This document shows positions 1-47,282 of a DNA stretch of 47,282 nucleotides, piece after piece. The stretch spans positions 1 to 47,282 of the forward strand of contig JAWXBX010000195.1 in the NCBI GenBank assembly GCA_034440415.1, read 5' to 3'. The stretch comes from Gemmatimonadota bacterium. GTDB taxonomy: Bacteria; Gemmatimonadota; Gemmatimonadetes; Gemmatimonadales; GWC2-71-9. A program made the position numbers and the translations under genes. Position 1 is the first letter of the stretch. Each line of letters starts with the position of its first letter. The notes under the pieces are model-generated. The model ran no database searches, had not been told where the DNA came from, and saw nothing but the letters and a program-made list of their open reading frames with translations.

Positions 1-29
1 GCCCGGCGCCGGGCCCGGTCGCCATCGGC

Positions 30-701
30 GTGATCCTCCGCGGTTTCGCGCTGACCTACGCCACGCTGTCGCTCGTCGCCGCGCTGATCGCGATCCTGCT
101 GTTCTGCATCCTCGAGCTGCTCCCCGAGTCACGCGCCACCTGGACCCGGAGCGCGAAGTGGAGTGAGATCCGCCCCGGCATGACGCCGCAGGAGGTCATC
201 GACCTCCTCGGGGAGCCGTTCCAGCGAAGCACTGCAGGGGATTCCTCCACCGGTTCGAAAGTTCAATTTGGTTATCAGCTCCACCCTCTCGACTTGCGCG
301 ATGGAGCAGCGGTCATCTTCCAGGCAGTATCGGGTGCGACCATGACGGCGACCCTCAAGTCACCCGACGACGAGAGTCTGGCACGGATCACTGGGGACTG
401 GATTCCCGGTGGCTACACCGGATCCCGGTACCGTGGCACCATCATGGATACGGCGTACATTCTCTCGTTTGTCGGTATCATGCTCCTGGCTGGGCTCACG
501 ATGCTGCCGTTCGGTGCTCGCGCCGGGGCCTCCTCCTGGACCCTCTACATTCCGCTGCTCGCGCTGGTCCTGGGGCTGATCTACGAAGCGCGCGGCCCCC
601 GCGGCTGGCGCTACGACCTGATGCTCCTCTATCCGCTCTACGCCATCATCCTGATCGGGTGGATGGTCCGGCTGATCCCGCTGCTCCGGGGCCGGGCGTA
701 A
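30..701 (+). CDS. Membrane protein with SmpA/BamE-like soluble segment
   Basis: 223 aa, GTG start; N-terminal TM, WSEIRPGMTPQEVIDLLGEP motif, three C-terminal TMs. Confidence 0.6.
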   Translation: MILRGFALTYATLSLVAALIAILLFCILELLPESRATWTRSAKWSEIRPGMTPQEVIDLLGEPFQRSTAGDSSTGSKVQFGYQLHPLDLRDGAAVIFQAVSGATMTATLKSPDDESLARITGDWIPGGYTGSRYRGTIMDTAYILSFVGIMLLAGLTMLPFGARAGASSWTLYIPLLALVLGLIYEARGPRGWRYDLMLLYPLYAIILIGWMVRLIPLLRGRA

Positions 702-809
702 CACGCTGCATCTCATGGGAGGTGGTCGCCGGACCGCTGGTGCTGCTGATACTATTCCCGTCGTCCTACGGTAGACCGAGTCCCTTCTCTCTCATCAGCC
801 GAGCACCTG

Positions 810-1898
810 ATGTCCCGTCACACTCTTGCTGCCGTTGTCGCCCTTGGCTCGCTGGCCTGCTACGGCCCGTACCGCGAACCCTCGCTCCCCCCGCCGCCCC
901 TGGCCACTCTGCCGCCGGTCCGACTGTCGCCCTCCGGCGTCACGCTGCAGGACCAGGTCTCCGGCACCACCGCGCGGCTCCAGGCCATCAGCGTCGTCAA
1001 TGACAAGATCGTGTGGGCGAGTGGCACCGGTGGCGCGTTCGTGGTGACCACGAATGGCGGTCTGAGCTGGCGGGCGGGCACGGTCGCTGGTGCGGACAGT
1101 CTGGAGTTCCGTGACGTGCACGGCGTCGATGCGCGGACCGCATGGCTGCTCGCCTCCGGGCCCGGGACCAAGTCACGGATCTACCATACCATCGACGGCG
1201 GCCAGAACTGGCAGATCCAGTTCATCAACCGCACGCCGGAAGCGTTCTACGACTGCTTCGCGTTCTGGGACCGGAAGAACGGCATTGCCTGGAGCGACAA
1301 CGTGGGGGGCCGGTTCCCCTATCTCGTCACCGCCGACACCGGCCAGACCTGGGAGCAGCGCTATCTCGACGGGGCTACCGAGGGCGAAGGCGCCTTTGCC
1401 GCAAGCGGCACCTGCGTGATCACACAGGGCAGCCAGATGGCGTGGGTGGCGACGGGCGCAGGGAAGGAAGCGCGGCTGTTTTCAACGGCCGACCGGGGCA
1501 AGAGCTGGACCCATGTGTCCACGCCGATCGTGCAGGGCAGCAGCACCACCGGCCACACCTCGATCGCCTTTCGTTCACCGAAGGATGGCATCGCAGTCGG
1601 TGGTGATATCGGTGTGGCCGACAGCTGGACCGACAATGTCGTCGTCACCCACGATGGCGGCCTCACCTGGAAACCCGGCACGCGACCGACCTTTCCCGGC
1701 GCAGTCTACGGCGCCGCGCCGGTGGCGGGCAGCCCGCGATTCGTCGCCGTCGGCCCGAAGGGCGCCGCCGTCACCGCCGATGATGGGACGACCTGGCAGC
1801 CGCTCGATACCCTCAGCTATTGGAGCGCCGGTTTCGCCACACCGCAGGCGGGATGGCTGGTCGGGCCAGAGGGACGGATCACGCAGGTGCGGTTCTAG
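810..1898 (+). CDS. BNR/Asp-box repeat beta-propeller lipoprotein (Ycf48/sialidase-like)
   Basis: Repeated TxDGGxxW motifs (TTNGGLSW, TIDGGQNW, TADRGKSW, THDGGLTW, TADDGTTW); lipobox-like SLAC. Confidence 0.85.
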   Translation: MSRHTLAAVVALGSLACYGPYREPSLPPPPLATLPPVRLSPSGVTLQDQVSGTTARLQAISVVNDKIVWASGTGGAFVVTTNGGLSWRAGTVAGADSLEFRDVHGVDARTAWLLASGPGTKSRIYHTIDGGQNWQIQFINRTPEAFYDCFAFWDRKNGIAWSDNVGGRFPYLVTADTGQTWEQRYLDGATEGEGAFAASGTCVITQGSQMAWVATGAGKEARLFSTADRGKSWTHVSTPIVQGSSTTGHTSIAFRSPKDGIAVGGDIGVADSWTDNVVVTHDGGLTWKPGTRPTFPGAVYGAAPVAGSPRFVAVGPKGAAVTADDGTTWQPLDTLSYWSAGFATPQAGWLVGPEGRITQVRF

Positions 1899-1901
1899 GC
1901 G

Positions 1902-2387
1902 ATGGGAGTGGGCAACTGGGGCGATAGGCGGTGGGCGCTGGGCGGAATTGGATTCGCGCTCGCCCTGCTCCTGCTTTCCCGCTCGACGATCCAGGCCCAG
2001 GCTGCGCCCGCCGCCGCCGCCGCCGACTCCGCGTCGCTTATCGTAGTGCGCAGCTACTTCGCCGCCTACAACAGCCACGATGTCGACGCGGTGCTGCGGC
2101 ACATCGCCCCCGAGTTCGTCTGGCTCAACCTGGCCGGAGATTCCATCACCGTCGAATTGCGCGGCGCCGACGCGGTTCGCTCCGGACTGATCGACTACTT
2201 CCGCCGGCTCCCCACGGCGCGCTCCGACATCGAAGCGATCAGCGCACTCGGTCCGTGGGTGTCGGTCCGGGAGCGGGCCCGCTGGGCAGGAGCGAATGGT
2301 CCCCGCTCCCAAGCCGCGCTTTCGGTGTACGAAGTGCGCGGCGGCCTGTTGCGGCGGGTCTGGTACTATCCCGAAGTGCGCGAATAA
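1902..2387 (+). CDS. SnoaL-like/NTF2-fold exported protein
   Basis: VVRSYFAAYNSHDVDAV...RGADAVR...YEVRGGLLRRVW pattern; signal-peptide-like N-terminus; exact start uncertain. Confidence 0.8.
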   Translation: MGVGNWGDRRWALGGIGFALALLLLSRSTIQAQAAPAAAAADSASLIVVRSYFAAYNSHDVDAVLRHIAPEFVWLNLAGDSITVELRGADAVRSGLIDYFRRLPTARSDIEAISALGPWVSVRERARWAGANGPRSQAALSVYEVRGGLLRRVWYYPEVRE

Positions 2388-2404
2388 CCCACACCCTGAA
2401 TCAC

Positions 2405-2923
2405 ATGGTTCCCCGTCAGCCCTGGTTCGCACGGAAGTTCTCGTTCGATTACCCCGTGAGCGCCGCCGCCGGCCTGGTGGAGCGCCTGCGCGGTACACCG
2501 GCGCGTCTCGTCGATCGCCTCAAGGATCTCGCGCCCGCCCAGCTCACCCTGCGTCGGGGCGACCAGTGGTCCATCCAGGAGAATGTCGGTCACCTCTGGG
2601 ATCTCGAGCCGCTCTGGCTCGCGCGCATCGAGGATATCGCCGTTGGCCGCCTGACACTCCAGGAAGCGGATCTCGAGAACCGGCGGACCTGGGGGGCGCA
2701 CCACAACGATCGCCCGTTGAGTGATCTGCTCACGGGCTTCGAGACCGCGCGGCGCCTCCTCGTCCGGCAGCTCGATGACGCCGACGAGGCCGACTGGCTC
2801 CGTTCCGCCCGCCATCCCCGGCTCGAGGTCAGCATGCGGCTGGTGGATCTGGCGATCTTCGTCGCGGAACATGACGACCATCATCTCGCGACGATCAGTG
2901 AGCAGTTGCGGGGGAGGCTCTAG
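2405..2923 (+). CDS. DinB family protein
   Basis: ATG at 2405 inside ORF 1931-2923; WSIQENVGHLWDLE and AEHDDHHL His motifs. Confidence 0.88.
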   Translation: MVPRQPWFARKFSFDYPVSAAAGLVERLRGTPARLVDRLKDLAPAQLTLRRGDQWSIQENVGHLWDLEPLWLARIEDIAVGRLTLQEADLENRRTWGAHHNDRPLSDLLTGFETARRLLVRQLDDADEADWLRSARHPRLEVSMRLVDLAIFVAEHDDHHLATISEQLRGRL

Positions 2924-2957
2924 GCGGTTGGGCGGTTGGGTGGTTGGTTGGGCGAGG
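2921..2957 (+). repeat. Degenerate GGCGGTTG-type short tandem repeat
   Basis: TAGGCGGTTGGGCGGTTGGGTGGTTGGTTGGGCG starting at the DinB stop. Confidence 0.6.
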
Positions 2958-3002
2958 CGAAGGTATTCGGTTCTTACCAACGGCCAATGGTCCACCGCCC
3001 TC

Positions 3003-3027
3003 GGCTGACGGCTGACGGCTGATGGCT
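3003..3027 (+). repeat. Heptamer tandem repeat (GGCTGAY)x3.5
   Basis: GGCTGAC GGCTGAC GGCTGAT GGCT. Confidence 0.8.
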
Positions 3028-3052
3028 TTTCCCTAACCGGATTTCCGTCTCA

Positions 3053-3520
3053 GTGATCATCGTCCCGTTCCACCCCGACCTGGCCCCCGCCTTCACCCGG
3101 CTCAATCGCGAATGGATTGAGCGGCTCTTCCGGCTGGAACCCGCCGACCTGAAGACGCTGGAGAACCCGGTGGCATCCATCATCGCGCCCGGCGGCCAGA
3201 TCTTCTTCGCGCTGGATGGTGCCGAACCGGTGGGTACCGTCGCGGCGGTGCGGGAGTCAGCCGACCGTTTCGAACTGGCCAAGATGGCGGTGCGGCCCTC
3301 GCACCAGGGACAGGGAGTCGGGCGACTGCTCGGTGAAGCGGTGGTTCAGTTCGCGCGTGAGGCGGACGCACAGAGCGTGTTCCTGCTGACCAACAGCAGT
3401 CTCGCCGGCGCAATCCGACTCTACGAACGGCTCGGCTTCCGGCATGGGCCGCTGCCGCCCAGCACGGGGTATGCGCGGGCGGATGTGTGTATGGAGCTCG
3501 ACCTGAAGCGCGGGAGGTAA
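3053..3520 (+). CDS. GNAT family N-acetyltransferase
   Basis: FTRLNREWIE, ELAKMAVRPSHQGQGVGRLL acetyl-CoA motif, AIRLYERLGF. Confidence 0.92.
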   Translation: MIIVPFHPDLAPAFTRLNREWIERLFRLEPADLKTLENPVASIIAPGGQIFFALDGAEPVGTVAAVRESADRFELAKMAVRPSHQGQGVGRLLGEAVVQFAREADAQSVFLLTNSSLAGAIRLYERLGFRHGPLPPSTGYARADVCMELDLKRGR

Positions 3521-3524
3521 GCAA

Positions 3525-3641
3525 GAGGTGGCAGAGGACAGGTGGCAGGTGGCAGGGCAGAAAAAAGATGGCAAGTAGATCGCGTGATCCGCGACCCACT
3601 TGCCGCCCTCTCCCTGCCACCTGCTCCCTGCCACCTGCTCC
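3525..3641. repeat. Inverted GGTGGCA/TGCCACC heptamer arrays between convergent genes
   Basis: GAGGTGGCAG..CAGGTGGCAGGTGGCAGG on the left; CCCTGCCACCTGCTCCCTGCCACCTGCTCCC on the right. Confidence 0.7.
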
Positions 3642-4337
3642 CTACTTGAAATCCAGTAACTCCACCTCGAACACCAGCGTGGCATTCGGCGGGATACGCG
3701 GCGGCGAACCCTGCGGGCCATAGCCCAGGTCACCGGGAATCCAGAACTGGTACTTGGCGCCCTTGGTCATGAGCTGTATCCCCTCGGTCCAGCCGCTGAC
3801 GACCTGATTCAGCGGTGTGGTGTACGGCTGGCCGCGCCGCACCGAGCTGTCGAACTCCGTGCCGTCGAGCAGGGTGCCGACGTAGTGCACCGTGACAATG
3901 CTCGTCGCCTTGGGGTGGGCCCCGGTGCCTTCCTTCAGCACCTTGTACTGCAAGCCGCTCGCAGTGGTCTTCACGCCGTCCTTGCCCTTGTTGTCGGCGA
4001 GGAACTTGTCGGCCTCGCGCTTGTTGTCGATTGAGGCGATGGAATCCTTCTGGTGCTGGATACCCATCATCCGCACCTGGAAGCCCATCATCGTCGCCTG
4101 CATCACCGAGTCCGGCATCGTCGCCGGGCTGCCGGCCATCGCCTGACGGAGACCCTGGAAGATCACTTCCGGCTTCACCGGCACGGACTGCTGCTTCAGA
4201 TTTTCGCCCATCTTGTAGCCCAGGATGTAGCTGACGCTGTCGTCCTGGGTGGCGAGCTTGCTGCTTCCACCGCCCGCGCCCGCCTGACCGCAGCCCAGCA
4301 GGGCGCCAGCCAGGGCCGCGATGACCATCGTACGCAT
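3642..4337 (-). CDS. FKBP-type peptidyl-prolyl cis-trans isomerase (FkpA/Mip-like lipoprotein)
   Basis: ATG 4337 after GGAG; LLGC lipobox; SYILG, TASGLQYKVL, VHYVGTLLDGTEFDSS, IPPNATLVFEVELL. Confidence 0.95.
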   Translation of the reverse strand: MRTMVIAALAGALLGCGQAGAGGGSSKLATQDDSVSYILGYKMGENLKQQSVPVKPEVIFQGLRQAMAGSPATMPDSVMQATMMGFQVRMMGIQHQKDSIASIDNKREADKFLADNKGKDGVKTTASGLQYKVLKEGTGAHPKATSIVTVHYVGTLLDGTEFDSSVRRGQPYTTPLNQVVSGWTEGIQLMTKGAKYQFWIPGDLGYGPQGSPPRIPPNATLVFEVELLDFK

Positions 4338-4579
4338 GAACACTCCGGAATTGGGGACCAGGGGACTGCTTTCTGACGGGCGGGAATATAGCAGGAGGGC
4401 GACCGGGCGCAGCCCCGAGCCTCCGGTGCCTGGCTTGGCGGCCCCTGACCCGGCCAAGGGGTATCCGGCGTCGCCAGGCTGGATGGGCCCGGAGCGCGGG
4501 GTCGGGCCCATCGGGCCACAGGACCCCGATAGCGGGGCGTGGCCGCCTGTTGGCTGCCAAGCCGCCAGCGGCCGACGGT

Positions 4580-5040
4580 TCATACGATCCGCAGACCGGC
4601 CTTTTCCCCTGCCAGCGGCTCCCCTGCCAGCACGTGCGCGATCTCCTCACAACGGTTGCAGAGCGTCGACCGGTGGGCCCCATGCTCATAGGTGGTGAGG
4701 CGGGCAGTCGGCAGGACGGCAACGACCCTCCGTACCCGCGCTGTTGGCGCAGTGATGTCCCGCTCGCCGTAGAACAGCCGCAGCGGTATGCAGATCTCGT
4801 CCAGGCGAATATCGAACTCGCGCACATCGAGGGCCATGTCCCAGGCCGTGCCTCTCGTCCCCTGCCGCAGGGAATCGCGCCTCAGCCAGTCAGACGACAT
4901 AGCACCGGAGAGGGTCGCTCCCTCCAGGCAATCCGTCACCCACAAACACCGTCCGCGATGCAGCGTCTTCCGAACCCTTCAGGGATCGCAAACCAGGACG
5001 GTCAATTTGAACTCCCCAAGCAAGGGGCAAGCATCGCTGG
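4580..5040 (-). pseudogene. Decayed alpha/beta hydrolase remnant
   Basis: C-terminal SLRQG..WD..LDEI.IP..LFYGERD...GAH in ORF 4580-4945; IDRPG motif upstream in another frame; no GxSxG nucleophile region; left boundary approximate. Confidence 0.6.
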
Positions 5041-5053
5041 AGCGGGCGGGCGT

Positions 5054-5797
5054 TCATCGCCAGATGGACGCCGCTGCTGCGTCGGCCTGCTCCTTCCATC
5101 GTTGTTCGTTCACCCCGAACACGAGGAGCCACAGGACCAGCGATGCTGCCCCGACAGCAGCGGCAGCCAGGATGTAGGGGAGGAGACGAGCTGCGAGCGG
5201 CTCGTACAGATAGGTCAGCCAGCCCAACCCTCCGACAACCTCGAACACACCCAGGATTCGAGGCAGGAAGGTGGACTTGAACACCAGATAGCCCTTCACG
5301 AGGGCATAGAGACCGAAGAACACCACGGCGATTGTCTCGGCCTGGTGGTTGATGTGGAGGAAGAGGAGTGCCAGCGCCTGCAATTGCTGCGTGTCGAATA
5401 CAGTCAGGTAGTGCGCCCCTCCCAGGACGAGCAAGGGAGCGAAGAAGAAGAGGCGACTGAGGATCTTGATGGTGCAGCCGATGAGGCCGAAGATCGCCGC
5501 CAGCATGGAGCCACTCCGGCTCACCGGCTTGAGCAGGTCGTAGAAGAGCGCCGTCATCGTGACCTGGCACGCCATTTCGATGAGGTAGACCGCGAAGCCA
5601 AGCCGAAAGAGCGCCTCATGCGCCAGGATGTTGGTCGCCGTAGCTGCGGCGTCGCCGGATACAACGAGCCTCTCGCTCACAACGCCCTGGGCGACCACTC
5701 CCATGGCAATGGTGAGCAGATAGAAGACACCGGCGATCCTGGCTTTAGCCCGCGGCGACGTTTCTCCAATCCGTTCCGGCACGACAGCTGTGCTCAT
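5054..5797 (-). CDS. DUF4386 family membrane protein
   Basis: ARIAGVFYL, GDAAATATNI, KSTFLPRILG; AAGGAG RBS. Confidence 0.85.
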   Translation of the reverse strand: MSTAVVPERIGETSPRAKARIAGVFYLLTIAMGVVAQGVVSERLVVSGDAAATATNILAHEALFRLGFAVYLIEMACQVTMTALFYDLLKPVSRSGSMLAAIFGLIGCTIKILSRLFFFAPLLVLGGAHYLTVFDTQQLQALALLFLHINHQAETIAVVFFGLYALVKGYLVFKSTFLPRILGVFEVVGGLGWLTYLYEPLAARLLPYILAAAAVGAASLVLWLLVFGVNEQRWKEQADAAAASIWR

Positions 5798-6020
5798 GAC
5801 CGCTCCTTCTTGTTCGTGCCACTCTGACGTCAGTCTACGGGAGGATCACAACCCTCGGGAATCATGGGGCCACGGTGTTTGGGTCCGGCGACCCGTCCGC
5901 TTGAGCCGGTGAAGCTGTCGGCGGCCGGTCGAAGGATGCCGCGTTGCCCGAAAGGATCGGATGGCTTCGCTGCCCCAGTCCTCGCGGGAGACGCGCAGCA
6001 GGACTGTGCGTCTGTTCCGC

Positions 6021-6695
6021 CTATCGTGGTGCCGGCGCGGCGACGCCCTTGATGAGCAGCCAGATCGCCAGCGTCACCTCGTACACCAGCATCGGCAGCC
6101 ACATGAACAGGGTGACCGGGCCGTCGAGGAATCCGGCGAGCCGGAGGGGAAGGCACGCCACGAGCAGGCCGGAAGCGATTACGCCGAGCCAGGCGAGTGA
6201 GATGGGGATCAGCCGACCCCGGAGAAACAGGAAGGAGAAGAGCGTGCTGCCCACGGCGAAGAAGGTCGCGCTGGTGAGCGAGGTCCATCCTCCCACCTCG
6301 CGCAGGAACGCGCCGAGCGCATGCGCCGCCGCTGTGTCGGGGGCATCCGCACCGGTGGCTGTCGCGAGCCAGACCAGTCCCAGGGATGTCGGGATGCCTA
6401 TGCCGATGAGCCCCTCGCCGACCCGGCAGGTCAGGCCCAGCATGGCAAGATCGGGGTCCTCCTCGCGGGTGAGCGCATAGGTCGTCACGGCCAGCACCAG
6501 CGCCGCAACGGACTGCAGCAGCCCGGACAGAGTGACCACGCCCATGGCTGTCGTGTGCTGGCCGATGCTCGCGAGCTTTTCCGCGATCCCGGCTCCACCG
6601 GACGCGCGACCGGACAGCACCATGCTGGTGAGGCCGACCGCGATGTAGAAAAGGTAGGTGACGCCGGCGATTCTGGCGTTCGTGGTGCGAGTCAT
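6021..6695 (-). CDS. DUF4386 family membrane protein
   Basis: ARIAGVTYLFYI, LRGRLIPISLAWLG, WLLIKGV; GGAG RBS. Confidence 0.8.
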   Translation of the reverse strand: MTRTTNARIAGVTYLFYIAVGLTSMVLSGRASGGAGIAEKLASIGQHTTAMGVVTLSGLLQSVAALVLAVTTYALTREEDPDLAMLGLTCRVGEGLIGIGIPTSLGLVWLATATGADAPDTAAAHALGAFLREVGGWTSLTSATFFAVGSTLFSFLFLRGRLIPISLAWLGVIASGLLVACLPLRLAGFLDGPVTLFMWLPMLVYEVTLAIWLLIKGVAAPAPR

Positions 6696-6723
6696 GGGTG
6701 CTCCGGGAAGACCGGCGGGCTGC

Positions 6724-7008
6724 TCATGCGCTCCCTGCCAGGCTCGCCTGCTCCTTCCATCGTTGCTCGTTCACTCCCCTCAGCAGGAGCCGGAGGGTCA
6801 GGCATCCTTGTCCGACAATCCCGGGAAACAGGTTGTAGGGGAACAGGTCGCTGGCAAACGACGCTGACAGAAAGGTCAACCAGCCCAGGCCGCCGAACGC
6901 CAACAGCACACCCAGGGTTCGTGGCAGGAAGGTGGAACGGAGAATGAAGAGGGCCAATGATCCGGTCAGGAAAGTGACCAGGTTGCAACCACCGGCTATC
7001 CTGGCCAT
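6724..7008 (-). pseudogene. Internally deleted DUF4386 paralogue
   Basis: ARIAG joined almost directly to RSTFLPRTLG..GGLGWLT..GVNEQRWKEQA, matching the C-terminus of 5054-5797. Confidence 0.7.
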
Positions 7009-7015
7009 GGTCGTG

Positions 7016-9693
<2,678 letters not shown>

Positions 9694-9697
<4 letters not shown>

Positions 9698-10038
9698 GGC
9701 GCCTCCCGTCGCGGTGCGAGAAAGGCGGCGATGAGATCGGCGGTGCGATGCCATTCCCGGGCTTCGCGCGCCAGTTGCCGGCGCCCCGCGGCAGTGAGCG
9801 TGTAGTACTTGGCGCGGCGATTGTTCTCGGACTGGCCCCACGCGGCGGTGACAAAACCTTCCTGTTCGAGCTTGAGGAGCGCGGGGTACAGCGTGCCATA
9901 GTTGAGTGTGAGGCGATGCTTGCTCGTTTCCTCGATGCGGCGACAGACGCCGTAGCCATGCAGCGGCCCGAGGACCTCGAGGGTCTTGAGAATCATCAGG
10001 GCAAGGGTGCCCTGCTGCACGTCCAGCTTTTCCGCCAT
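9694..10038 (-). CDS. PadR family transcriptional regulator (acidobacterial-type)
   Basis: QGTLALMILKTL..GPLHGYG, GTLYPALLKLE, SENNRRAKYY. Confidence 0.95.
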
Positions 10039-10311
10039 CGTTCCGTCCTATGGGAATCCAATACGACGGTAACGTCCGGGGCCGGATCACGCAATAGATG
10101 TCTCGTCGGGATGTTTCAATCGTTGCAAGTCAATGGCTGCGTTCTAGCTCGCCTCTTCTGGGATTGGGATGAAACCCTGCGACGCGCGCAGCCGTCCCGG
10201 TGCTGAGACCGTCCAGCGTTTGACGATCCGTTCTTGGAATGGATGGTGGTTCCGTGCGGACTGGGCGATGGGGCGAGCGCTCGGCCTCACCGACTATTGG
10301 AAAGGCGTCAC

Positions 10312-11508: not shown

Positions 11509-11583
11509 TCGCAACTGGCTGGCCGATGGAGATCCGCCAGATCAGGCGACTGCCCCCGCATCACCTGCGTGGCGCATGCGTGG

Positions 11584-35699: not shown

Positions 35700-35774
35700 C
35701 CACGCATGCGCCACGCAGGTGATGCGGGGGCAGTCGCCTGATCTGGCGGATCTCCATCGGCCAGCCAGTTGCGA

Positions 35775-36971: not shown

Positions 36972-37244
36972 GTGACGCCTTTCCAATAGTCGGTGAGGCC
37001 GAGCGCTCGCCCCATCGCCCAGTCCGCACGGAACCACCATCCATTCCAAGAACGGATCGTCAAACGCTGGACGGTCTCAGCACCGGGACGGCTGCGCGCG
37101 TCGCAGGGTTTCATCCCAATCCCAGAAGAGGCGAGCTAGAACGCAGCCATTGACTTGCAACGATTGAAACATCCCGACGAGACATCTATTGCGTGATCCG
37201 GCCCCGGACGTTACCGTCGTATTGGATTCCCATAGGACGGAACG

Positions 37245-37585
37245 ATGGCGGAAAAGCTGGACGTGCAGCAGGGCACCCTTGCCCTGATGATTCTCAAGAC
37301 CCTCGAGGTCCTCGGGCCGCTGCATGGCTACGGCGTCTGTCGCCGCATCGAGGAAACGAGCAAGCATCGCCTCACACTCAACTATGGCACGCTGTACCCC
37401 GCGCTCCTCAAGCTCGAACAGGAAGGTTTTGTCACCGCCGCGTGGGGCCAGTCCGAGAACAATCGCCGCGCCAAGTACTACACGCTCACTGCCGCGGGGC
37501 GCCGGCAACTGGCGCGCGAAGCCCGGGAATGGCATCGCACCGCCGATCTCATCGCCGCCTTTCTCGCACCGCGACGGGAGGCGCC

Positions 37586-37589
<4 letters not shown>
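37245..37589 (+). CDS. PadR regulator (mirror copy)
   Basis: Mirror of 9694-10038. Confidence 0.88.
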
Positions 37590-40267
<2,678 letters not shown>

Positions 40268-40274
40268 CACGACC

Positions 40275-40559
40275 ATGGCCAGGATAGCCGGTGGTTGCAA
40301 CCTGGTCACTTTCCTGACCGGATCATTGGCCCTCTTCATTCTCCGTTCCACCTTCCTGCCACGAACCCTGGGTGTGCTGTTGGCGTTCGGCGGCCTGGGC
40401 TGGTTGACCTTTCTGTCAGCGTCGTTTGCCAGCGACCTGTTCCCCTACAACCTGTTTCCCGGGATTGTCGGACAAGGATGCCTGACCCTCCGGCTCCTGC
40501 TGAGGGGAGTGAACGAGCAACGATGGAAGGAGCAGGCGAGCCTGGCAGGGAGCGCATGA
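40275..40559 (+). pseudogene. Internally deleted DUF4386 (mirror copy)
   Basis: Mirror of 6724-7008. Confidence 0.65.
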
Positions 40560-40587
40560 GCAGCCCGCCGGTCTTCCCGGAGCACCC

Positions 40588-41262
40588 ATGACTCGCACCA
40601 CGAACGCCAGAATCGCCGGCGTCACCTACCTTTTCTACATCGCGGTCGGCCTCACCAGCATGGTGCTGTCCGGTCGCGCGTCCGGTGGAGCCGGGATCGC
40701 GGAAAAGCTCGCGAGCATCGGCCAGCACACGACAGCCATGGGCGTGGTCACTCTGTCCGGGCTGCTGCAGTCCGTTGCGGCGCTGGTGCTGGCCGTGACG
40801 ACCTATGCGCTCACCCGCGAGGAGGACCCCGATCTTGCCATGCTGGGCCTGACCTGCCGGGTCGGCGAGGGGCTCATCGGCATAGGCATCCCGACATCCC
40901 TGGGACTGGTCTGGCTCGCGACAGCCACCGGTGCGGATGCCCCCGACACAGCGGCGGCGCATGCGCTCGGCGCGTTCCTGCGCGAGGTGGGAGGATGGAC
41001 CTCGCTCACCAGCGCGACCTTCTTCGCCGTGGGCAGCACGCTCTTCTCCTTCCTGTTTCTCCGGGGTCGGCTGATCCCCATCTCACTCGCCTGGCTCGGC
41101 GTAATCGCTTCCGGCCTGCTCGTGGCGTGCCTTCCCCTCCGGCTCGCCGGATTCCTCGACGGCCCGGTCACCCTGTTCATGTGGCTGCCGATGCTGGTGT
41201 ACGAGGTGACGCTGGCGATCTGGCTGCTCATCAAGGGCGTCGCCGCGCCGGCACCACGATAG
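40588..41262 (+). CDS. DUF4386 protein (mirror copy)
   Basis: Mirror of 6021-6695. Confidence 0.75.
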   Translation: MTRTTNARIAGVTYLFYIAVGLTSMVLSGRASGGAGIAEKLASIGQHTTAMGVVTLSGLLQSVAALVLAVTTYALTREEDPDLAMLGLTCRVGEGLIGIGIPTSLGLVWLATATGADAPDTAAAHALGAFLREVGGWTSLTSATFFAVGSTLFSFLFLRGRLIPISLAWLGVIASGLLVACLPLRLAGFLDGPVTLFMWLPMLVYEVTLAIWLLIKGVAAPAPR

Positions 41263-41485
41263 GCGGAACAGACGCACAGTCCTGCTGCGCGTCTCCCGCG
41301 AGGACTGGGGCAGCGAAGCCATCCGATCCTTTCGGGCAACGCGGCATCCTTCGACCGGCCGCCGACAGCTTCACCGGCTCAAGCGGACGGGTCGCCGGAC
41401 CCAAACACCGTGGCCCCATGATTCCCGAGGGTTGTGATCCTCCCGTAGACTGACGTCAGAGTGGCACGAACAAGAAGGAGCGGTC

Positions 41486-42229
41486 ATGAGCACAGCTGTC
41501 GTGCCGGAACGGATTGGAGAAACGTCGCCGCGGGCTAAAGCCAGGATCGCCGGTGTCTTCTATCTGCTCACCATTGCCATGGGAGTGGTCGCCCAGGGCG
41601 TTGTGAGCGAGAGGCTCGTTGTATCCGGCGACGCCGCAGCTACGGCGACCAACATCCTGGCGCATGAGGCGCTCTTTCGGCTTGGCTTCGCGGTCTACCT
41701 CATCGAAATGGCGTGCCAGGTCACGATGACGGCGCTCTTCTACGACCTGCTCAAGCCGGTGAGCCGGAGTGGCTCCATGCTGGCGGCGATCTTCGGCCTC
41801 ATCGGCTGCACCATCAAGATCCTCAGTCGCCTCTTCTTCTTCGCTCCCTTGCTCGTCCTGGGAGGGGCGCACTACCTGACTGTATTCGACACGCAGCAAT
41901 TGCAGGCGCTGGCACTCCTCTTCCTCCACATCAACCACCAGGCCGAGACAATCGCCGTGGTGTTCTTCGGTCTCTATGCCCTCGTGAAGGGCTATCTGGT
42001 GTTCAAGTCCACCTTCCTGCCTCGAATCCTGGGTGTGTTCGAGGTTGTCGGAGGGTTGGGCTGGCTGACCTATCTGTACGAGCCGCTCGCAGCTCGTCTC
42101 CTCCCCTACATCCTGGCTGCCGCTGCTGTCGGGGCAGCATCGCTGGTCCTGTGGCTCCTCGTGTTCGGGGTGAACGAACAACGATGGAAGGAGCAGGCCG
42201 ACGCAGCAGCGGCGTCCATCTGGCGATGA
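41486..42229 (+). CDS. DUF4386 protein (mirror copy)
   Basis: Mirror of 5054-5797. Confidence 0.8.
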   Translation: MSTAVVPERIGETSPRAKARIAGVFYLLTIAMGVVAQGVVSERLVVSGDAAATATNILAHEALFRLGFAVYLIEMACQVTMTALFYDLLKPVSRSGSMLAAIFGLIGCTIKILSRLFFFAPLLVLGGAHYLTVFDTQQLQALALLFLHINHQAETIAVVFFGLYALVKGYLVFKSTFLPRILGVFEVVGGLGWLTYLYEPLAARLLPYILAAAAVGAASLVLWLLVFGVNEQRWKEQADAAAASIWR

Positions 42230-42242
42230 ACGCCCGCCCGCT

Positions 42243-42703
42243 CCAGCGATGCTTGCCCCTTGCTTGGGGAGTTCAAATTGACCGTCCTGGTTTGCGATCC
42301 CTGAAGGGTTCGGAAGACGCTGCATCGCGGACGGTGTTTGTGGGTGACGGATTGCCTGGAGGGAGCGACCCTCTCCGGTGCTATGTCGTCTGACTGGCTG
42401 AGGCGCGATTCCCTGCGGCAGGGGACGAGAGGCACGGCCTGGGACATGGCCCTCGATGTGCGCGAGTTCGATATTCGCCTGGACGAGATCTGCATACCGC
42501 TGCGGCTGTTCTACGGCGAGCGGGACATCACTGCGCCAACAGCGCGGGTACGGAGGGTCGTTGCCGTCCTGCCGACTGCCCGCCTCACCACCTATGAGCA
42601 TGGGGCCCACCGGTCGACGCTCTGCAACCGTTGTGAGGAGATCGCGCACGTGCTGGCAGGGGAGCCGCTGGCAGGGGAAAAGGCCGGTCTGCGGATCGTA
42701 TGA
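42243..42703 (+). pseudogene. Alpha/beta hydrolase remnant (mirror copy)
   Basis: Mirror of 4580-5040. Confidence 0.55.
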
Positions 42704-42945
42704 ACCGTCGGCCGCTGGCGGCTTGGCAGCCAACAGGCGGCCACGCCCCGCTATCGGGGTCCTGTGGCCCGATGGGCCCGACCCCGCGCTCCGGGCCCAT
42801 CCAGCCTGGCGACGCCGGATACCCCTTGGCCGGGTCAGGGGCCGCCAAGCCAGGCACCGGAGGCTCGGGGCTGCGCCCGGTCGCCCTCCTGCTATATTCC
42901 CGCCCGTCAGAAAGCAGTCCCCTGGTCCCCAATTCCGGAGTGTTC

Positions 42946-43641
42946 ATGCGTACGATGGTCATCGCGGCCCTGGCTGGCGCCCTGCTGGGCTGCGGTCAGG
43001 CGGGCGCGGGCGGTGGAAGCAGCAAGCTCGCCACCCAGGACGACAGCGTCAGCTACATCCTGGGCTACAAGATGGGCGAAAATCTGAAGCAGCAGTCCGT
43101 GCCGGTGAAGCCGGAAGTGATCTTCCAGGGTCTCCGTCAGGCGATGGCCGGCAGCCCGGCGACGATGCCGGACTCGGTGATGCAGGCGACGATGATGGGC
43201 TTCCAGGTGCGGATGATGGGTATCCAGCACCAGAAGGATTCCATCGCCTCAATCGACAACAAGCGCGAGGCCGACAAGTTCCTCGCCGACAACAAGGGCA
43301 AGGACGGCGTGAAGACCACTGCGAGCGGCTTGCAGTACAAGGTGCTGAAGGAAGGCACCGGGGCCCACCCCAAGGCGACGAGCATTGTCACGGTGCACTA
43401 CGTCGGCACCCTGCTCGACGGCACGGAGTTCGACAGCTCGGTGCGGCGCGGCCAGCCGTACACCACACCGCTGAATCAGGTCGTCAGCGGCTGGACCGAG
43501 GGGATACAGCTCATGACCAAGGGCGCCAAGTACCAGTTCTGGATTCCCGGTGACCTGGGCTATGGCCCGCAGGGTTCGCCGCCGCGTATCCCGCCGAATG
43601 CCACGCTGGTGTTCGAGGTGGAGTTACTGGATTTCAAGTAG
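42946..43641 (+). CDS. FKBP-type PPIase (mirror copy)
   Basis: Mirror of 3642-4337. Confidence 0.9.
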   Translation: MRTMVIAALAGALLGCGQAGAGGGSSKLATQDDSVSYILGYKMGENLKQQSVPVKPEVIFQGLRQAMAGSPATMPDSVMQATMMGFQVRMMGIQHQKDSIASIDNKREADKFLADNKGKDGVKTTASGLQYKVLKEGTGAHPKATSIVTVHYVGTLLDGTEFDSSVRRGQPYTTPLNQVVSGWTEGIQLMTKGAKYQFWIPGDLGYGPQGSPPRIPPNATLVFEVELLDFK

Positions 43642-43762
43642 GGAGCAGGTGGCAGGGAGCAGGTGGCAGGGAGAGGGCGGCAAGTGGGTCGCGGATCACG
43701 CGATCTACTTGCCATCTTTTTTCTGCCCTGCCACCTGCCACCTGTCCTCTGCCACCTCTTGC

Positions 43763-44230
43763 TTACCTCCCGCGCTTCAGGTCGAGCTCCATACACACAT
43801 CCGCCCGCGCATACCCCGTGCTGGGCGGCAGCGGCCCATGCCGGAAGCCGAGCCGTTCGTAGAGTCGGATTGCGCCGGCGAGACTGCTGTTGGTCAGCAG
43901 GAACACGCTCTGTGCGTCCGCCTCACGCGCGAACTGAACCACCGCTTCACCGAGCAGTCGCCCGACTCCCTGTCCCTGGTGCGAGGGCCGCACCGCCATC
44001 TTGGCCAGTTCGAAACGGTCGGCTGACTCCCGCACCGCCGCGACGGTACCCACCGGTTCGGCACCATCCAGCGCGAAGAAGATCTGGCCGCCGGGCGCGA
44101 TGATGGATGCCACCGGGTTCTCCAGCGTCTTCAGGTCGGCGGGTTCCAGCCGGAAGAGCCGCTCAATCCATTCGCGATTGAGCCGGGTGAAGGCGGGGGC
44201 CAGGTCGGGGTGGAACGGGACGATGATCAC
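43763..44230 (-). CDS. GNAT acetyltransferase (mirror copy)
   Basis: Mirror of 3053-3520. Confidence 0.85.
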   Translation of the reverse strand: MIIVPFHPDLAPAFTRLNREWIERLFRLEPADLKTLENPVASIIAPGGQIFFALDGAEPVGTVAAVRESADRFELAKMAVRPSHQGQGVGRLLGEAVVQFAREADAQSVFLLTNSSLAGAIRLYERLGFRHGPLPPSTGYARADVCMELDLKRGR

Positions 44231-44359
44231 TGAGACGGAAATCCGGTTAGGGAAAAGCCATCAGCCGTCAGCCGTCAGCCGAGGGCGGTGGACCATTGGC
44301 CGTTGGTAAGAACCGAATACCTTCGCCTCGCCCAACCAACCACCCAACCGCCCAACCGC

Positions 44360-44878
44360 CTAGAGCCTCCCCCGCAACTGCTCACTGATCGTCGCGAGAT
44401 GATGGTCGTCATGTTCCGCGACGAAGATCGCCAGATCCACCAGCCGCATGCTGACCTCGAGCCGGGGATGGCGGGCGGAACGGAGCCAGTCGGCCTCGTC
44501 GGCGTCATCGAGCTGCCGGACGAGGAGGCGCCGCGCGGTCTCGAAGCCCGTGAGCAGATCACTCAACGGGCGATCGTTGTGGTGCGCCCCCCAGGTCCGC
44601 CGGTTCTCGAGATCCGCTTCCTGGAGTGTCAGGCGGCCAACGGCGATATCCTCGATGCGCGCGAGCCAGAGCGGCTCGAGATCCCAGAGGTGACCGACAT
44701 TCTCCTGGATGGACCACTGGTCGCCCCGACGCAGGGTGAGCTGGGCGGGCGCGAGATCCTTGAGGCGATCGACGAGACGCGCCGGTGTACCGCGCAGGCG
44801 CTCCACCAGGCCGGCGGCGGCGCTCACGGGGTAATCGAACGAGAACTTCCGTGCGAACCAGGGCTGACGGGGAACCAT
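44360..44878 (-). CDS. DinB family protein (mirror copy)
   Basis: Mirror of 2405-2923. Confidence 0.82.
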   Translation of the reverse strand: MVPRQPWFARKFSFDYPVSAAAGLVERLRGTPARLVDRLKDLAPAQLTLRRGDQWSIQENVGHLWDLEPLWLARIEDIAVGRLTLQEADLENRRTWGAHHNDRPLSDLLTGFETARRLLVRQLDDADEADWLRSARHPRLEVSMRLVDLAIFVAEHDDHHLATISEQLRGRL

Positions 44879-44895
44879 GTGATTCAGGGTGTGGG

Positions 44896-45381
44896 TTATT
44901 CGCGCACTTCGGGATAGTACCAGACCCGCCGCAACAGGCCGCCGCGCACTTCGTACACCGAAAGCGCGGCTTGGGAGCGGGGACCATTCGCTCCTGCCCA
45001 GCGGGCCCGCTCCCGGACCGACACCCACGGACCGAGTGCGCTGATCGCTTCGATGTCGGAGCGCGCCGTGGGGAGCCGGCGGAAGTAGTCGATCAGTCCG
45101 GAGCGAACCGCGTCGGCGCCGCGCAATTCGACGGTGATGGAATCTCCGGCCAGGTTGAGCCAGACGAACTCGGGGGCGATGTGCCGCAGCACCGCGTCGA
45201 CATCGTGGCTGTTGTAGGCGGCGAAGTAGCTGCGCACTACGATAAGCGACGCGGAGTCGGCGGCGGCGGCGGCGGGCGCAGCCTGGGCCTGGATCGTCGA
45301 GCGGGAAAGCAGGAGCAGGGCGAGCGCGAATCCAATTCCGCCCAGCGCCCACCGCCTATCGCCCCAGTTGCCCACTCCCAT
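44896..45381 (-). CDS. SnoaL-like protein (mirror copy)
   Basis: Mirror of 1902-2387. Confidence 0.75.
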   Translation of the reverse strand: MGVGNWGDRRWALGGIGFALALLLLSRSTIQAQAAPAAAAADSASLIVVRSYFAAYNSHDVDAVLRHIAPEFVWLNLAGDSITVELRGADAVRSGLIDYFRRLPTARSDIEAISALGPWVSVRERARWAGANGPRSQAALSVYEVRGGLLRRVWYYPEVRE

Positions 45382-45384
45382 CGC

Positions 45385-46473
45385 CTAGAACCGCACCTGC
45401 GTGATCCGTCCCTCTGGCCCGACCAGCCATCCCGCCTGCGGTGTGGCGAAACCGGCGCTCCAATAGCTGAGGGTATCGAGCGGCTGCCAGGTCGTCCCAT
45501 CATCGGCGGTGACGGCGGCGCCCTTCGGGCCGACGGCGACGAATCGCGGGCTGCCCGCCACCGGCGCGGCGCCGTAGACTGCGCCGGGAAAGGTCGGTCG
45601 CGTGCCGGGTTTCCAGGTGAGGCCGCCATCGTGGGTGACGACGACATTGTCGGTCCAGCTGTCGGCCACACCGATATCACCACCGACTGCGATGCCATCC
45701 TTCGGTGAACGAAAGGCGATCGAGGTGTGGCCGGTGGTGCTGCTGCCCTGCACGATCGGCGTGGACACATGGGTCCAGCTCTTGCCCCGGTCGGCCGTTG
45801 AAAACAGCCGCGCTTCCTTCCCTGCGCCCGTCGCCACCCACGCCATCTGGCTGCCCTGTGTGATCACGCAGGTGCCGCTTGCGGCAAAGGCGCCTTCGCC
45901 CTCGGTAGCCCCGTCGAGATAGCGCTGCTCCCAGGTCTGGCCGGTGTCGGCGGTGACGAGATAGGGGAACCGGCCCCCCACGTTGTCGCTCCAGGCAATG
46001 CCGTTCTTCCGGTCCCAGAACGCGAAGCAGTCGTAGAACGCTTCCGGCGTGCGGTTGATGAACTGGATCTGCCAGTTCTGGCCGCCGTCGATGGTATGGT
46101 AGATCCGTGACTTGGTCCCGGGCCCGGAGGCGAGCAGCCATGCGGTCCGCGCATCGACGCCGTGCACGTCACGGAACTCCAGACTGTCCGCACCAGCGAC
46201 CGTGCCCGCCCGCCAGCTCAGACCGCCATTCGTGGTCACCACGAACGCGCCACCGGTGCCACTCGCCCACACGATCTTGTCATTGACGACGCTGATGGCC
46301 TGGAGCCGCGCGGTGGTGCCGGAGACCTGGTCCTGCAGCGTGACGCCGGAGGGCGACAGTCGGACCGGCGGCAGAGTGGCCAGGGGCGGCGGGGGGAGCG
46401 AGGGTTCGCGGTACGGGCCGTAGCAGGCCAGCGAGCCAAGGGCGACAACGGCAGCAAGAGTGTGACGGGACAT
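45385..46473 (-). CDS. BNR-repeat lipoprotein (mirror copy)
   Basis: Mirror of 810-1898. Confidence 0.8.
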   Translation of the reverse strand: MSRHTLAAVVALGSLACYGPYREPSLPPPPLATLPPVRLSPSGVTLQDQVSGTTARLQAISVVNDKIVWASGTGGAFVVTTNGGLSWRAGTVAGADSLEFRDVHGVDARTAWLLASGPGTKSRIYHTIDGGQNWQIQFINRTPEAFYDCFAFWDRKNGIAWSDNVGGRFPYLVTADTGQTWEQRYLDGATEGEGAFAASGTCVITQGSQMAWVATGAGKEARLFSTADRGKSWTHVSTPIVQGSSTTGHTSIAFRSPKDGIAVGGDIGVADSWTDNVVVTHDGGLTWKPGTRPTFPGAVYGAAPVAGSPRFVAVGPKGAAVTADDGTTWQPLDTLSYWSAGFATPQAGWLVGPEGRITQVRF

Positions 46474-46581
46474 CAGGTGCTCGGCTGATGAGAGAGAAGG
46501 GACTCGGTCTACCGTAGGACGACGGGAATAGTATCAGCAGCACCAGCGGTCCGGCGACCACCTCCCATGAGATGCAGCGTG

Positions 46582-47253
46582 TTACGCCCGGCCCCGGAGC
46601 AGCGGGATCAGCCGGACCATCCACCCGATCAGGATGATGGCGTAGAGCGGATAGAGGAGCATCAGGTCGTAGCGCCAGCCGCGGGGGCCGCGCGCTTCGT
46701 AGATCAGCCCCAGGACCAGCGCGAGCAGCGGAATGTAGAGGGTCCAGGAGGAGGCCCCGGCGCGAGCACCGAACGGCAGCATCGTGAGCCCAGCCAGGAG
46801 CATGATACCGACAAACGAGAGAATGTACGCCGTATCCATGATGGTGCCACGGTACCGGGATCCGGTGTAGCCACCGGGAATCCAGTCCCCAGTGATCCGT
46901 GCCAGACTCTCGTCGTCGGGTGACTTGAGGGTCGCCGTCATGGTCGCACCCGATACTGCCTGGAAGATGACCGCTGCTCCATCGCGCAAGTCGAGAGGGT
47001 GGAGCTGATAACCAAATTGAACTTTCGAACCGGTGGAGGAATCCCCTGCAGTGCTTCGCTGGAACGGCTCCCCGAGGAGGTCGATGACCTCCTGCGGCGT
47101 CATGCCGGGGCGGATCTCACTCCACTTCGCGCTCCGGGTCCAGGTGGCGCGTGACTCGGGGAGCAGCTCGAGGATGCAGAACAGCAGGATCGCGATCAGC
47201 GCGGCGACGAGCGACAGCGTGGCGTAGGTCAGCGCGAAACCGCGGAGGATCAC
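46582..47253 (-). CDS. Membrane protein with SmpA/BamE-like segment (mirror copy)
   Basis: Mirror of 30-701. Confidence 0.55.
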   Translation of the reverse strand: MILRGFALTYATLSLVAALIAILLFCILELLPESRATWTRSAKWSEIRPGMTPQEVIDLLGEPFQRSTAGDSSTGSKVQFGYQLHPLDLRDGAAVIFQAVSGATMTATLKSPDDESLARITGDWIPGGYTGSRYRGTIMDTAYILSFVGIMLLAGLTMLPFGARAGASSWTLYIPLLALVLGLIYEARGPRGWRYDLMLLYPLYAIILIGWMVRLIPLLRGRA

Positions 47254-47282
47254 GCCGATGGCGACCGGGCCCGGCGCCGGGC

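What the first reader, a model, noticed from the sequence alone, without database searches (positions are those of the whole stretch)
1..47282. The whole window is a spacerless 47-kb palindrome
Seen: 1-23641 is the reverse complement of 23642-47282. All ORFs mirror at 47283-x, and even the frameshifts and internal stops are mirrored. Known: long perfect palindromes are unstable in bacteria, but they arise readily from fold-back reads, MDA chimeras or graph reflection, and from sequencing around a hairpin telomere. Inference: most likely an artefact, so only 23.6 kb is real. A real hairpin end or fresh inverted amplification would be remarkable.
Basis: partly seen in the sequence, partly recalled or inferred. 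Interest (0 to 1): 0.75.

Follow-up and report, generated by a model that had tools for sequence, protein, structure and literature searches.

The report
Mirrored contig made by assembly fold-back
The 47-kb perfect palindrome is almost certainly an assembly error that joined a 23.6-kb stretch of a Gemmatimonadales genome to its own reverse complement at a short natural hairpin repeat, so only one half is real.

Summary
The window equals its own reverse complement with 0 mismatches in 47,282 bases, with the axis at 23641/23642. It is a whole contig, C195, of a 403-contig bin.

The interpretation as an artefact is strongly supported.
- A second contig of the bin, C234 (60,600 nt), is also a perfect whole-contig palindrome. 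Three more contigs carry spacerless terminal fold-backs.
- The axis is the centre of a dispersed palindromic repeat with a 28-nt core. It has 23 copies in the bin, 8 of them at contig ends.
- In k=31 contigs of 3 of 4 public runs, sequence leaves the centre 22 nt past the axis. That leaves a natural 44-nt palindrome, 23620-23663.
- The departing sequence is the upstream region of upp. upp follows the same lipoprotein gene in 2 of 3 relatives.
- Relatives likewise run through the axes of C234, C116 and C323.
- No telomere resolvase was found, and the arm carries ordinary chromosomal genes.

Raw reads were not examined, so a rare real fold-back molecule is not formally excluded. Only 1-23663 should be kept.

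The parts
1..23641 (+). Real arm: ordinary chromosomal sequence of a Gemmatimonadales genome, 66% G+C. Genes include a BNR-repeat protein, SnoaL-like, DinB, GNAT, FKBP, two DUF4386 paralogues, a 1,024-aa MacB/FtsX permease, a beta-lactamase-fold protein, DJ-1/PfpI, DUF2911-TPR, an RNase T-like exonuclease, SET, AhpC/TSA, PHO4 and TfoX_N.
   Evidence: Pfam scan of 30 ORFs. Logan contigs of 4 of 4 runs cover 18000-23649 or 18000-23654 at 95-100% identity. Relative G009:C151 is collinear with 20597-23578 at 83.6%.
23664..47282 (.). Mirrored copy of 1-23619, the artefactual half. It duplicates every gene of the arm in inverted order.
   Evidence: Exact reverse complement. Sequence seen in other assemblies and in relatives departs from it after 23663.
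23620..23663 (.). Natural 44-nt perfect palindrome: a 20-bp stem with a 4-nt loop. It lies between the lipoprotein gene and upp, and the fold-back turns at its centre.
   Evidence: Loose ends leave the reference at 23663, mirrored at 23620, in X1, X2 and X6. As single-stranded DNA the hairpin has a centroid energy of -28.8 kcal/mol, z = -6.6, and 0 of 200 shuffles fold as well.
23628..23655 (.). 28-nt core of a dispersed REP-like palindromic repeat.
   Evidence: There are 23 hits with at most 2 substitutions in G000, 8 of them within 150 nt of a contig end, where 2.9% would be expected by length. The exact 22-mer occurs at 13 places and the 18-mer at 17.
23237..23593 (+). Small putative lipoprotein gene of 118 aa with a GTG start and a signal peptide carrying a Cys lipobox-like motif. 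It is the last gene before the axis, and its stop lies 48 nt before the axis.
   Evidence: ORF listing and sequence. No Pfam family. Orthologues at 77-90% aa identity in 3 of 3 relatives.
22845..23240 (+). TfoX_N-domain gene.
   Evidence: Pfam PF04993, E = 9.9e-27. Orthologues at 91-96% in 3 of 3 relatives.
21658..22785 (+). PHO4-family phosphate transporter gene.
   Evidence: Pfam PF01384, E = 2.1e-63. 82% aa identity in G009.
20728..20801 (-). tRNA-Phe (GAA). Its mirrored copy at 26482-26555 (+) is spurious.
   Evidence: ARAGORN. It explains the depth spike and the many short contigs at 20716-20909.

Best explanation
The contig is an assembly fold-back. The true genome reads arm (1-23619), then a natural 44-nt hairpin-forming palindrome (23620-23663, one copy of a dispersed REP-like repeat), then about 28 nt, then the upp gene. 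After roughly 1.1 kb that is missing from the bin it reaches the 3' end of contig C331. At the palindrome the assembly path turned round and ran back along the opposite strand of the same sequence to its other end. The output is therefore arm plus reverse-complemented arm.

Shown: the perfect symmetry; the repeat at the axis; recurrence of fold-backs in the same assembly; the departing sequence in other assemblies; and the synteny in relatives.

Inferred: the step that seeded the turn. One candidate is reflection of the de Bruijn graph at a palindromic (k+1)-mer at small k, which is possible for a 44-nt palindrome. The other is fold-back chimeric reads made when single strands snap back at a short palindrome during library preparation. 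The second is favoured for the other fold-backs, whose natural palindromes are only about 13-18 nt.
For: 1. Recurrence. 2 of 403 contigs are perfect whole-contig palindromes: C195, and C234 (60,600 nt, the longest contig). Another 3 of 403 have spacerless terminal fold-backs: C116 1-100, C323 1-69, C376 7364-7445.

2. The axis lies on a repeat. Window 23628-23655 is a 28-nt palindrome with 23 copies (at most 2 substitutions) in the bin. 8 of these lie within 150 nt of a contig end, where 2.9% would be expected. The axis of C376's terminal fold-back is the centre of another copy.

3. Independent k=31 contigs. Arm contigs stop at 23649 (X1, X2, X6) or 23654 (X3). That is short of 23656, where by my reasoning a branch-free hairpin turn would end a k=31 unitig, so the graph branches inside the centre. 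In 3 of 4 runs a contig matches the reference to 23663 (mirrored at 23620) and then runs for at least 255 nt into different sequence.

4. That 30-nt departure ends in ...CATCTTCTCCCCCAT. It aligns with the segment immediately upstream of the upp start codon in relatives G009 and G031. There upp follows the orthologous lipoprotein gene directly, with a 57-nt spacer in G031. This order is seen in 2 of 3 relatives examined.

5. G009:C151 is collinear with the arm (20597-23578, 83.6%). It then runs through upp and an MBL-fold gene into sequence 89.5% identical to G000:C331:8493-14650, which ends exactly at C331's contig end.

6. upp is absent from the bin by tblastn, and the departing 30-mer is absent too. 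This is as expected if the roughly 1.1-kb linking contig fell below the bin's 2.5-kb minimum contig length.

7. The same pattern holds at the other fold-backs.
- C234's axis cuts a RidA-like gene at profile position about 110 of 121. G009:C164 continues that gene to its stop and, about 1.55 kb later, matches G000:C74 from its base 3.
- For C116 and C323, homology in 3 of 3 relatives starts 7 and 6 nt before the axis and their contigs run on.

8. No ResT/TelK catalytic domain in a 94.4%-complete genome. The arm genes are ordinary chromosomal genes.

9. Literature.
- Whole-contig palindromes were reported as assembly errors in SPAdes assemblies, 81 contigs (PMC9455707; passages read).
- They were also reported in single-cell assemblies (bioRxiv 10.1101/2023.06.06.543983; passage read).
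- Palindromic maximal unitigs are a property of doubled de Bruijn graphs, and SPAdes and MEGAHIT output them whole (PMC9528984; passages read).
- Chimeric reads arise at inverted repeats and palindromes during library preparation (PMC10908179; abstract read).
Against: - No raw reads were examined.
- At k=31, Logan contigs cannot bridge a 44-nt palindrome. No single contig was shown that joins arm-unique sequence to upp. The link rests on the shared 44-mer plus synteny.
- The runs laid may include the sample the bin came from, so they are an independent assembly method but not necessarily independent data.
- In X3 no departure at 23663 was among the rows shown (91 loose ends were not shown).
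- The relatives are only 80-85% identical in DNA here.
- 1 of 3 relatives (G032) has unrelated low-G+C sequence after the lipoprotein gene, so the spot is variable.
- Arm depth was not compared with the rest of the genome, so a true two-fold copy number is not excluded by measurement.
- The assembler and its k values are unknown. A 44-nt palindrome cannot by itself reflect a graph at k of 55 or more.
Confidence: 0.95

Rival explanations
1. A real giant inverted duplication (palindromic amplification) exists in some cells of the population. It would form when a broken end snapped back at the 44-nt hairpin and was copied, and the assembler reported it faithfully.
For: The 44-nt palindrome is a strong hairpin as single-stranded DNA. 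From general knowledge, short inverted repeats nucleate large palindromes in several organisms. No read-level data here exclude a minority form.
Against: - Four other fold-backs occur in the same assembly, at unrelated places. One lies inside a RidA-like coding sequence. Natural palindromes at three of them are only about 13-18 nt.
- The ordinary continuation into upp is present in 3 of 4 runs.
- Both outer ends of the contig are the same point, as expected from walking one unitig twice.
- From general knowledge, long perfect palindromes are not maintained in bacteria with SbcCD-type nucleases.
Confidence: 0.03
2. The axis is a covalently closed hairpin telomere of a linear chromosome or plasmid. 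Sequencing round the tip would give a perfect palindrome.
For: Reading round a hairpin end gives exactly a spacerless perfect palindrome (general knowledge). The axis is intergenic.
Against: - No ResT/TelK catalytic domain in the 94.4%-complete genome.
- The axis sequence is a repeat present 23 times, mostly inside contigs.
- Sequence continues beyond the centre in other assemblies and in 2 of 3 relatives.
- A second palindromic contig has its axis inside a gene.
- No plasmid or phage genes were seen in the arm.
Confidence: 0.01
3. This is a sub-question within the artefact reading. The turn was made purely by the de Bruijn graph, at a palindromic (k+1)-mer at small k with the true branch pruned. 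No chimeric molecule existed in the library.
For: The natural palindrome is 44 nt, enough for palindromic edges at k up to 43. Palindromic unitigs are inherent to doubled graphs and are output whole by SPAdes and MEGAHIT (PMC9528984). The repeat also ends 8 contigs.
Against: The other fold-backs in the same assembly turn at natural palindromes of about 18 nt (C234), 14 nt (C116) and 13 nt (C323). These are too short for any usual k. That points to a common cause at read level, such as snap-back chimeras (PMC10908179, abstract).
Confidence: 0.4

Closest known systems
Palindromic (mirror) contigs or unitigs of de Bruijn graph assemblers
   Same: The whole contig is sequence plus its exact reverse complement, with no spacer and no mismatch. 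It turns at a natural short palindrome and recurs within one assembly. Such contigs have been reported and removed as errors in SPAdes assemblies (PMC9455707) and in single-cell assemblies (10.1101/2023.06.06.543983). The theory of palindromic maximal unitigs is in PMC9528984.
   Different: Nothing essential differs. Here the turning point is a copy of a dispersed repeat. The true neighbour could be inferred from relatives and from other assemblies.
Hairpin telomeres of linear replicons (Borrelia, the Agrobacterium linear chromosome, N15-type prophages; recalled)
   Same: Sequence read round the tip is a perfect spacerless palindrome.
   Different: No resolvase was found. The axis sequence is a multi-copy repeat. 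Sequence continues past the axis.
REP/BIME-type repetitive extragenic palindromes
   Same: It is a short G+C-rich palindrome with many dispersed copies. Some copies are arrays of half-units. The window's copy lies between two genes, just after a stop codon.
   Different: No Y1 (RAYT-type) transposase domain was found in the bin. The position of the other copies relative to genes was not examined.
Fold-back chimeric reads from library preparation or amplification
   Same: Inverted joins form at short inverted repeats or palindromes (PMC10908179, abstract). The terminal fold-backs of 69-100 nt at three contig ends have read-like lengths.
   Different: No reads were inspected here, so this origin is inferred.

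Membership tests
Palindromic-contig assembly artefact | The whole contig equals its own reverse complement, with no spacer and no mismatches | tested here: met
   0 mismatches in 47,282 positions. The window is the whole contig.
Palindromic-contig assembly artefact | The turn lies at a short natural palindrome | tested here: met
   A 44-nt natural palindrome at 23620-23663, delimited by departing contigs. Its core is a 23-copy repeat.
Palindromic-contig assembly artefact | It recurs at unrelated places in the same assembly | tested here: met
   C234 is a whole-contig palindrome. C116, C323 and C376 have terminal fold-backs. That is 5 of 403 contigs in all.
Palindromic-contig assembly artefact | The real genome continues past the axis into other sequence | tested here: met
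   The evidence is indirect. A departure after 23663 is seen in 3 of 4 runs. It is homologous to the region upstream of upp, which follows the same gene in 2 of 3 relatives. No single contig bridges arm-unique sequence to upp.
Palindromic-contig assembly artefact | Arm read depth equals single-copy depth, and no or few reads turn at the axis | not testable with these tools
Hairpin telomere of a linear replicon | A telomere resolvase (ResT/TelK/TelA) is encoded | tested here: not met
   PF16684 gave 0 matches in G000, which is 94.4% complete.
Hairpin telomere of a linear replicon | The sequence ends at the axis, with nothing beyond | tested here: not met
   Contigs leave the centre into novel sequence. 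Relatives run through the equivalent point.
Hairpin telomere of a linear replicon | The telomere sequence is specific to replicon ends | tested here: not met
   The core has 23 copies, and 15 of them lie more than 150 nt from any contig end.
REP/BIME elements | A short G+C-rich palindrome present in many dispersed copies | tested here: met
   The 22-mer occurs at 13 places, the 18-mer at 17, and the 28-mer (at most 2 substitutions) at 23.
REP/BIME elements | Extragenic location | tested here: inconclusive
   The window's copy lies 27 nt after a stop codon and before upp. C70's copy abuts the lptG stop. The other copies were not checked.
REP/BIME elements | An associated RAYT (Y1 transposase) | tested here: not met
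   PF01797 gave 0 matches in G000. The bin is incomplete.

The most novel reading that the evidence does not exclude
A minority of cells in the mat really carry a 47-kb spacerless inverted duplication. It would be formed by snap-back at the 44-nt REP-like hairpin after a break, and the assembler captured it. That would make dispersed REP-like hairpins natural seeds of giant palindromes in an uncultured Gemmatimonadales population.
Probability: 0.02. Interest if true: 0.7.

Novelty: not a real feature. Interest (0 to 1): 0.07.

Why it matters
The value is practical, for quality control.
- The two mirrored contigs are the longest and third-longest of the bin.
- Together they add 53,941 spurious bases, 1.29% of the bin.
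- They duplicate every gene on them, including a tRNA-Phe. This inflates N50, gene counts and apparent paralogy or contamination.
- They could be mistaken for hairpin-ended or inverted-repeat-bearing mobile elements.

A one-line test, sequence equals its own reverse complement, finds them. The contig should be cut to 1-23663.

The case also shows that a short dispersed hairpin repeat fragments this genome's assembly. It shows too that the true neighbours (upp, then C331) can be recovered from relatives.

Tried and rejected
- I tested whether the two palindromic contigs share one centre, which would make them the two mis-paired sides of a single palindrome. They share 0 bases outward from the axis.
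- I searched the bin for a contig overlapping the arm or axis. None was found beyond short repeats.
- I first took C70 (lptG/lptF) as the true neighbour, because one loose end (reference to 23658) is C70:34-63. I rejected this. C70 simply starts with its own copy of the repeat, sharing 31 nt, and in relatives lptG lies on other contigs than the arm genes.
- The other loose-end 30-mer is not in the bin.
- Logan contigs cannot bridge the 44-nt palindrome at k=31, so they neither show nor exclude a turn. The raised depth in bin 23626-23800 (2.5-4.5 times the bin before it) is uninformative. The mirrored reference lets contigs lie twice there, and other repeat copies also pile up.
- G032 was uninformative for the neighbour. 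It has low-G+C unrelated sequence after the lipoprotein gene, up to the contig end.
- The earlier-findings index returned nothing for these words (after a failed).
- The assembler and its k could not be identified. Contig-end overlaps of 101-188 nt fit no single k.
Full report
**Observation**

The window is identical to its own reverse complement: 0 mismatches in 47,282 positions, axis between 23641 and 23642, no spacer. It is the complete contig C195 of a 403-contig, 4.17-Mb bin. The bin has N50 14.9 kb, a shortest contig of 2.5 kb, 94.4% completeness and 2.47% contamination. Record titles of relatives place the organism in Gemmatimonadales.

**Content of the arm**

A Pfam scan of 30 ORFs in 1-23641 finds ordinary chromosomal genes. 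Examples are a MacB/FtsX permease of 1,024 aa, a beta-lactamase-fold protein, DinB, GNAT, FKBP, DJ-1/PfpI, DUF2911-TPR, AhpC/TSA, PHO4 and TfoX_N. There is also a tRNA-Phe at 20728-20801. I saw no phage, plasmid or telomere functions. The ResT/TelK catalytic domain has no match anywhere in the bin.

The last gene before the axis is a 118-aa putative lipoprotein at 23237-23593. The axis lies 48 nt after its stop codon.

**The fold-back is not unique in this assembly**

- 2 of 403 contigs are perfect whole-contig palindromes. They are C195 and C234 (60,600 nt), the third-longest and the longest contigs. Their centres are unrelated.
- Three more contigs have spacerless fold-backs at an end: C116 1-100, C323 1-69 (one central mismatch, odd length) and C376 7364-7445.

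**What sits at the axis**

Window 23628-23655 is a 28-nt perfect palindrome that is a dispersed repeat.
- The central 22-mer occurs at 13 places and the 18-mer at 17.
- The 28-mer with at most 2 substitutions occurs at 23 places. 8 of them are within 150 nt of a contig end, although only 2.9% of the assembly lies that close to an end.
- Some copies are arrays of half-units.
- The axis of C376's terminal fold-back is the centre of another copy.
- Internal copies are short palindromes flanked by unrelated sequence on the two sides.

So the repeat both breaks this assembly and is where paths turn round. No Y1/RAYT transposase domain was found, so I call it REP-like by form only.

**Other assemblies of the same DNA**

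Seventeen public runs hold part of 19000-23641, and eleven hold at least half of its sampled words. All eleven are microbial-mat metagenomes. I laid Logan's k=31 contigs of four of them on 18000-23800.

- The arm is covered in 4 of 4 runs.
- The arm contigs stop at 23649 (X1, X2, X6) or 23654 (X3). By my reasoning, a branch-free hairpin turn would let a k=31 unitig run to 23656. Stopping earlier means the graph branches inside the centre.
- Three departures are listed:
  - after 23658 (X1, X6; mirrored at 23625 in X2);
  - after 23663 (X2; mirrored at 23620 in X1 and X6);
  - after 23655 (X6).
- The first departure is the start of contig C70. That contig simply begins with its own copy of the repeat, downstream of lptG. 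It is not the neighbour.
- The second departure is absent from the bin. It defines a natural 44-nt palindrome, 23620-23663. As single-stranded DNA this folds into a 20-bp stem with a 4-nt loop (centroid -28.8 kcal/mol, z = -6.6).

**Relatives identify the true continuation**

- The closest relative among 30 searched is G009 (LptG 99%, PHO4 82% aa identity).
- Its contig C151 is collinear with the arm (20597-23578, 83.6%). It then continues through an intergenic stretch, upp (PF14681, E = 9e-78) and an MBL-fold gene. After that it enters sequence 89.5% identical to G000:C331:8493-14650, which is exactly the end of contig C331.
- In a second relative, G031, the order is TfoX, lipoprotein, 57 nt, upp.
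- The 30 nt that leave the window's centre after 23663 align with the segment directly upstream of the upp start codon in both relatives. The last bases of the natural palindrome (CCCTAC..CGCCC) are also conserved there.
- A third relative, G032, has unrelated low-G+C sequence after the lipoprotein gene and is uninformative.
- upp has no tblastn match in the bin. About 1.1 kb (upp plus the 5' part of the MBL-fold gene) is missing. That fits a linking contig below the 2.5-kb cut-off.

**The other fold-backs behave the same way**

- C234's axis lies inside a RidA-like ORF. The Ribonuc_L-PSP match ends at profile position 113 of 121, three residues past the axis.
- G009:C164 is collinear with that arm up to base 30309 (89.4%) and continues the gene to its stop. 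About 1.55 kb further on it matches G000:C74 from base 3. The natural palindrome there is about 18 nt.
- For C116 and C323, homology in 3 of 3 relatives begins 7 and 6 nt before the axis and their contigs run on. The natural palindromes are about 14 and 13 nt, and the rest is mirror.

**Mechanism**

The contig is the arm walked twice, out and back, after a turn at the 44-nt palindrome. Two seeds are possible.
- *Graph reflection.* A 44-nt palindrome yields palindromic edges at any k up to 43. In a doubled de Bruijn graph the maximal unitig through such an edge is itself a palindrome, which SPAdes and MEGAHIT output whole (PMC9528984, passages read).
- *Chimeric molecules.* The other turns in this assembly occur at palindromes of 13-18 nt, too short for usual k. 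That suggests snap-back chimeric molecules formed at short palindromes during library preparation (PMC10908179, abstract read).

I cannot decide between these without reads. Either way it is an artefact. Whole-contig palindromes have been reported and discarded as assembly errors before. One study found 81 such contigs in SPAdes assemblies of Mycobacterium bovis (PMC9455707, passages read). Another found them in single-cell assemblies of hot-spring cyanobacteria (bioRxiv 10.1101/2023.06.06.543983, passage read).

**Limits**

- No raw reads were seen.
- No contig joins arm-unique sequence to upp, because k=31 cannot cross 44 nt of palindrome.
- The runs may include the source sample.
- Arm depth was not compared with the rest of the genome.
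- One of three relatives differs at this spot.

These leave a few per cent for a real minority fold-back molecule, and about one per cent for a hairpin telomere.

**Verdict**

This is not a real feature. Keep 1-23663 and discard the mirror. The likely true order is arm, 44-nt hairpin, upp (about 1.1 kb unbinned), then reverse-complemented C331.

Noticed in passing
G000:C234:1-60600 (axis 30300/30301; L002 3001): A second perfect whole-contig palindrome, and the longest contig of the bin. Its axis lies inside a RidA-like gene downstream of an SDR gene. Relative G009:C164 completes the gene and, about 1.55 kb later, matches the start of G000:C74. This is also an artefact.
   Followed up: yes
G000:C116:1-100, C323:1-69, C376:7364-7445: Spacerless terminal fold-backs at three contig ends. 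For C116 and C323, 3 of 3 relatives show natural palindromes of only about 14 and 13 nt, with ordinary continuation beyond. C376's fold-back is centred on a copy of the REP-like repeat and could be partly natural, as an array of half-units.
   Followed up: partly
window 23628-23655 and 22 other places in G000 (e.g. C32:26164-26194, C66:3781-3808, C286:3224-3251, C331:8293-8320): A dispersed 28-nt G+C-rich perfect palindrome, sometimes with tandem half-units (TAGGGGCCGC). 8 of 23 copies lie at contig ends. No Y1/RAYT transposase domain is in the bin. The three relative loci inspected around the homologous spot lack it.
   Followed up: partly
L004 (G009:C151) 7240-7345 and L007 (G009:C164) about 6651-6720: In relative G009, both axis-equivalent intergenic regions carry tandem decamer repeats of the type CCGTCCGACC, instead of the palindromic repeat of G000. 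This looks like a different simple-repeat family at the same kind of site.
   Followed up: no
L088 (G032:C303) 1-900: Relative G032 has markedly low-G+C sequence directly after the orthologous lipoprotein gene, where G009 and G031 have upp. It may be an inserted foreign segment, and the contig ends inside it.
   Followed up: no
G000 whole bin: upp (uracil phosphoribosyltransferase) has no tblastn match in the 94.4%-complete bin. It probably lies on a roughly 1.1-kb contig excluded by the 2.5-kb length cut-off, between the window's arm and the end of C331.
   Followed up: partly
window 5054-5797 (-) and 6021-6695 (-): Two adjacent DUF4386 paralogues with 72.9% nucleotide identity over 192 nt.
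   Followed up: no
G000 contig ends: C17/C387, C24/C264, C159/C396, C249/C162, C253/C178, C313/C348: Pairs of contigs share 101-188 nt at 97-99% identity at their ends. They are probably joinable neighbours or strain variants. C223's 3' end after its repeat copy is the reverse complement of the sequence before C226's terminal copy.
   Followed up: no
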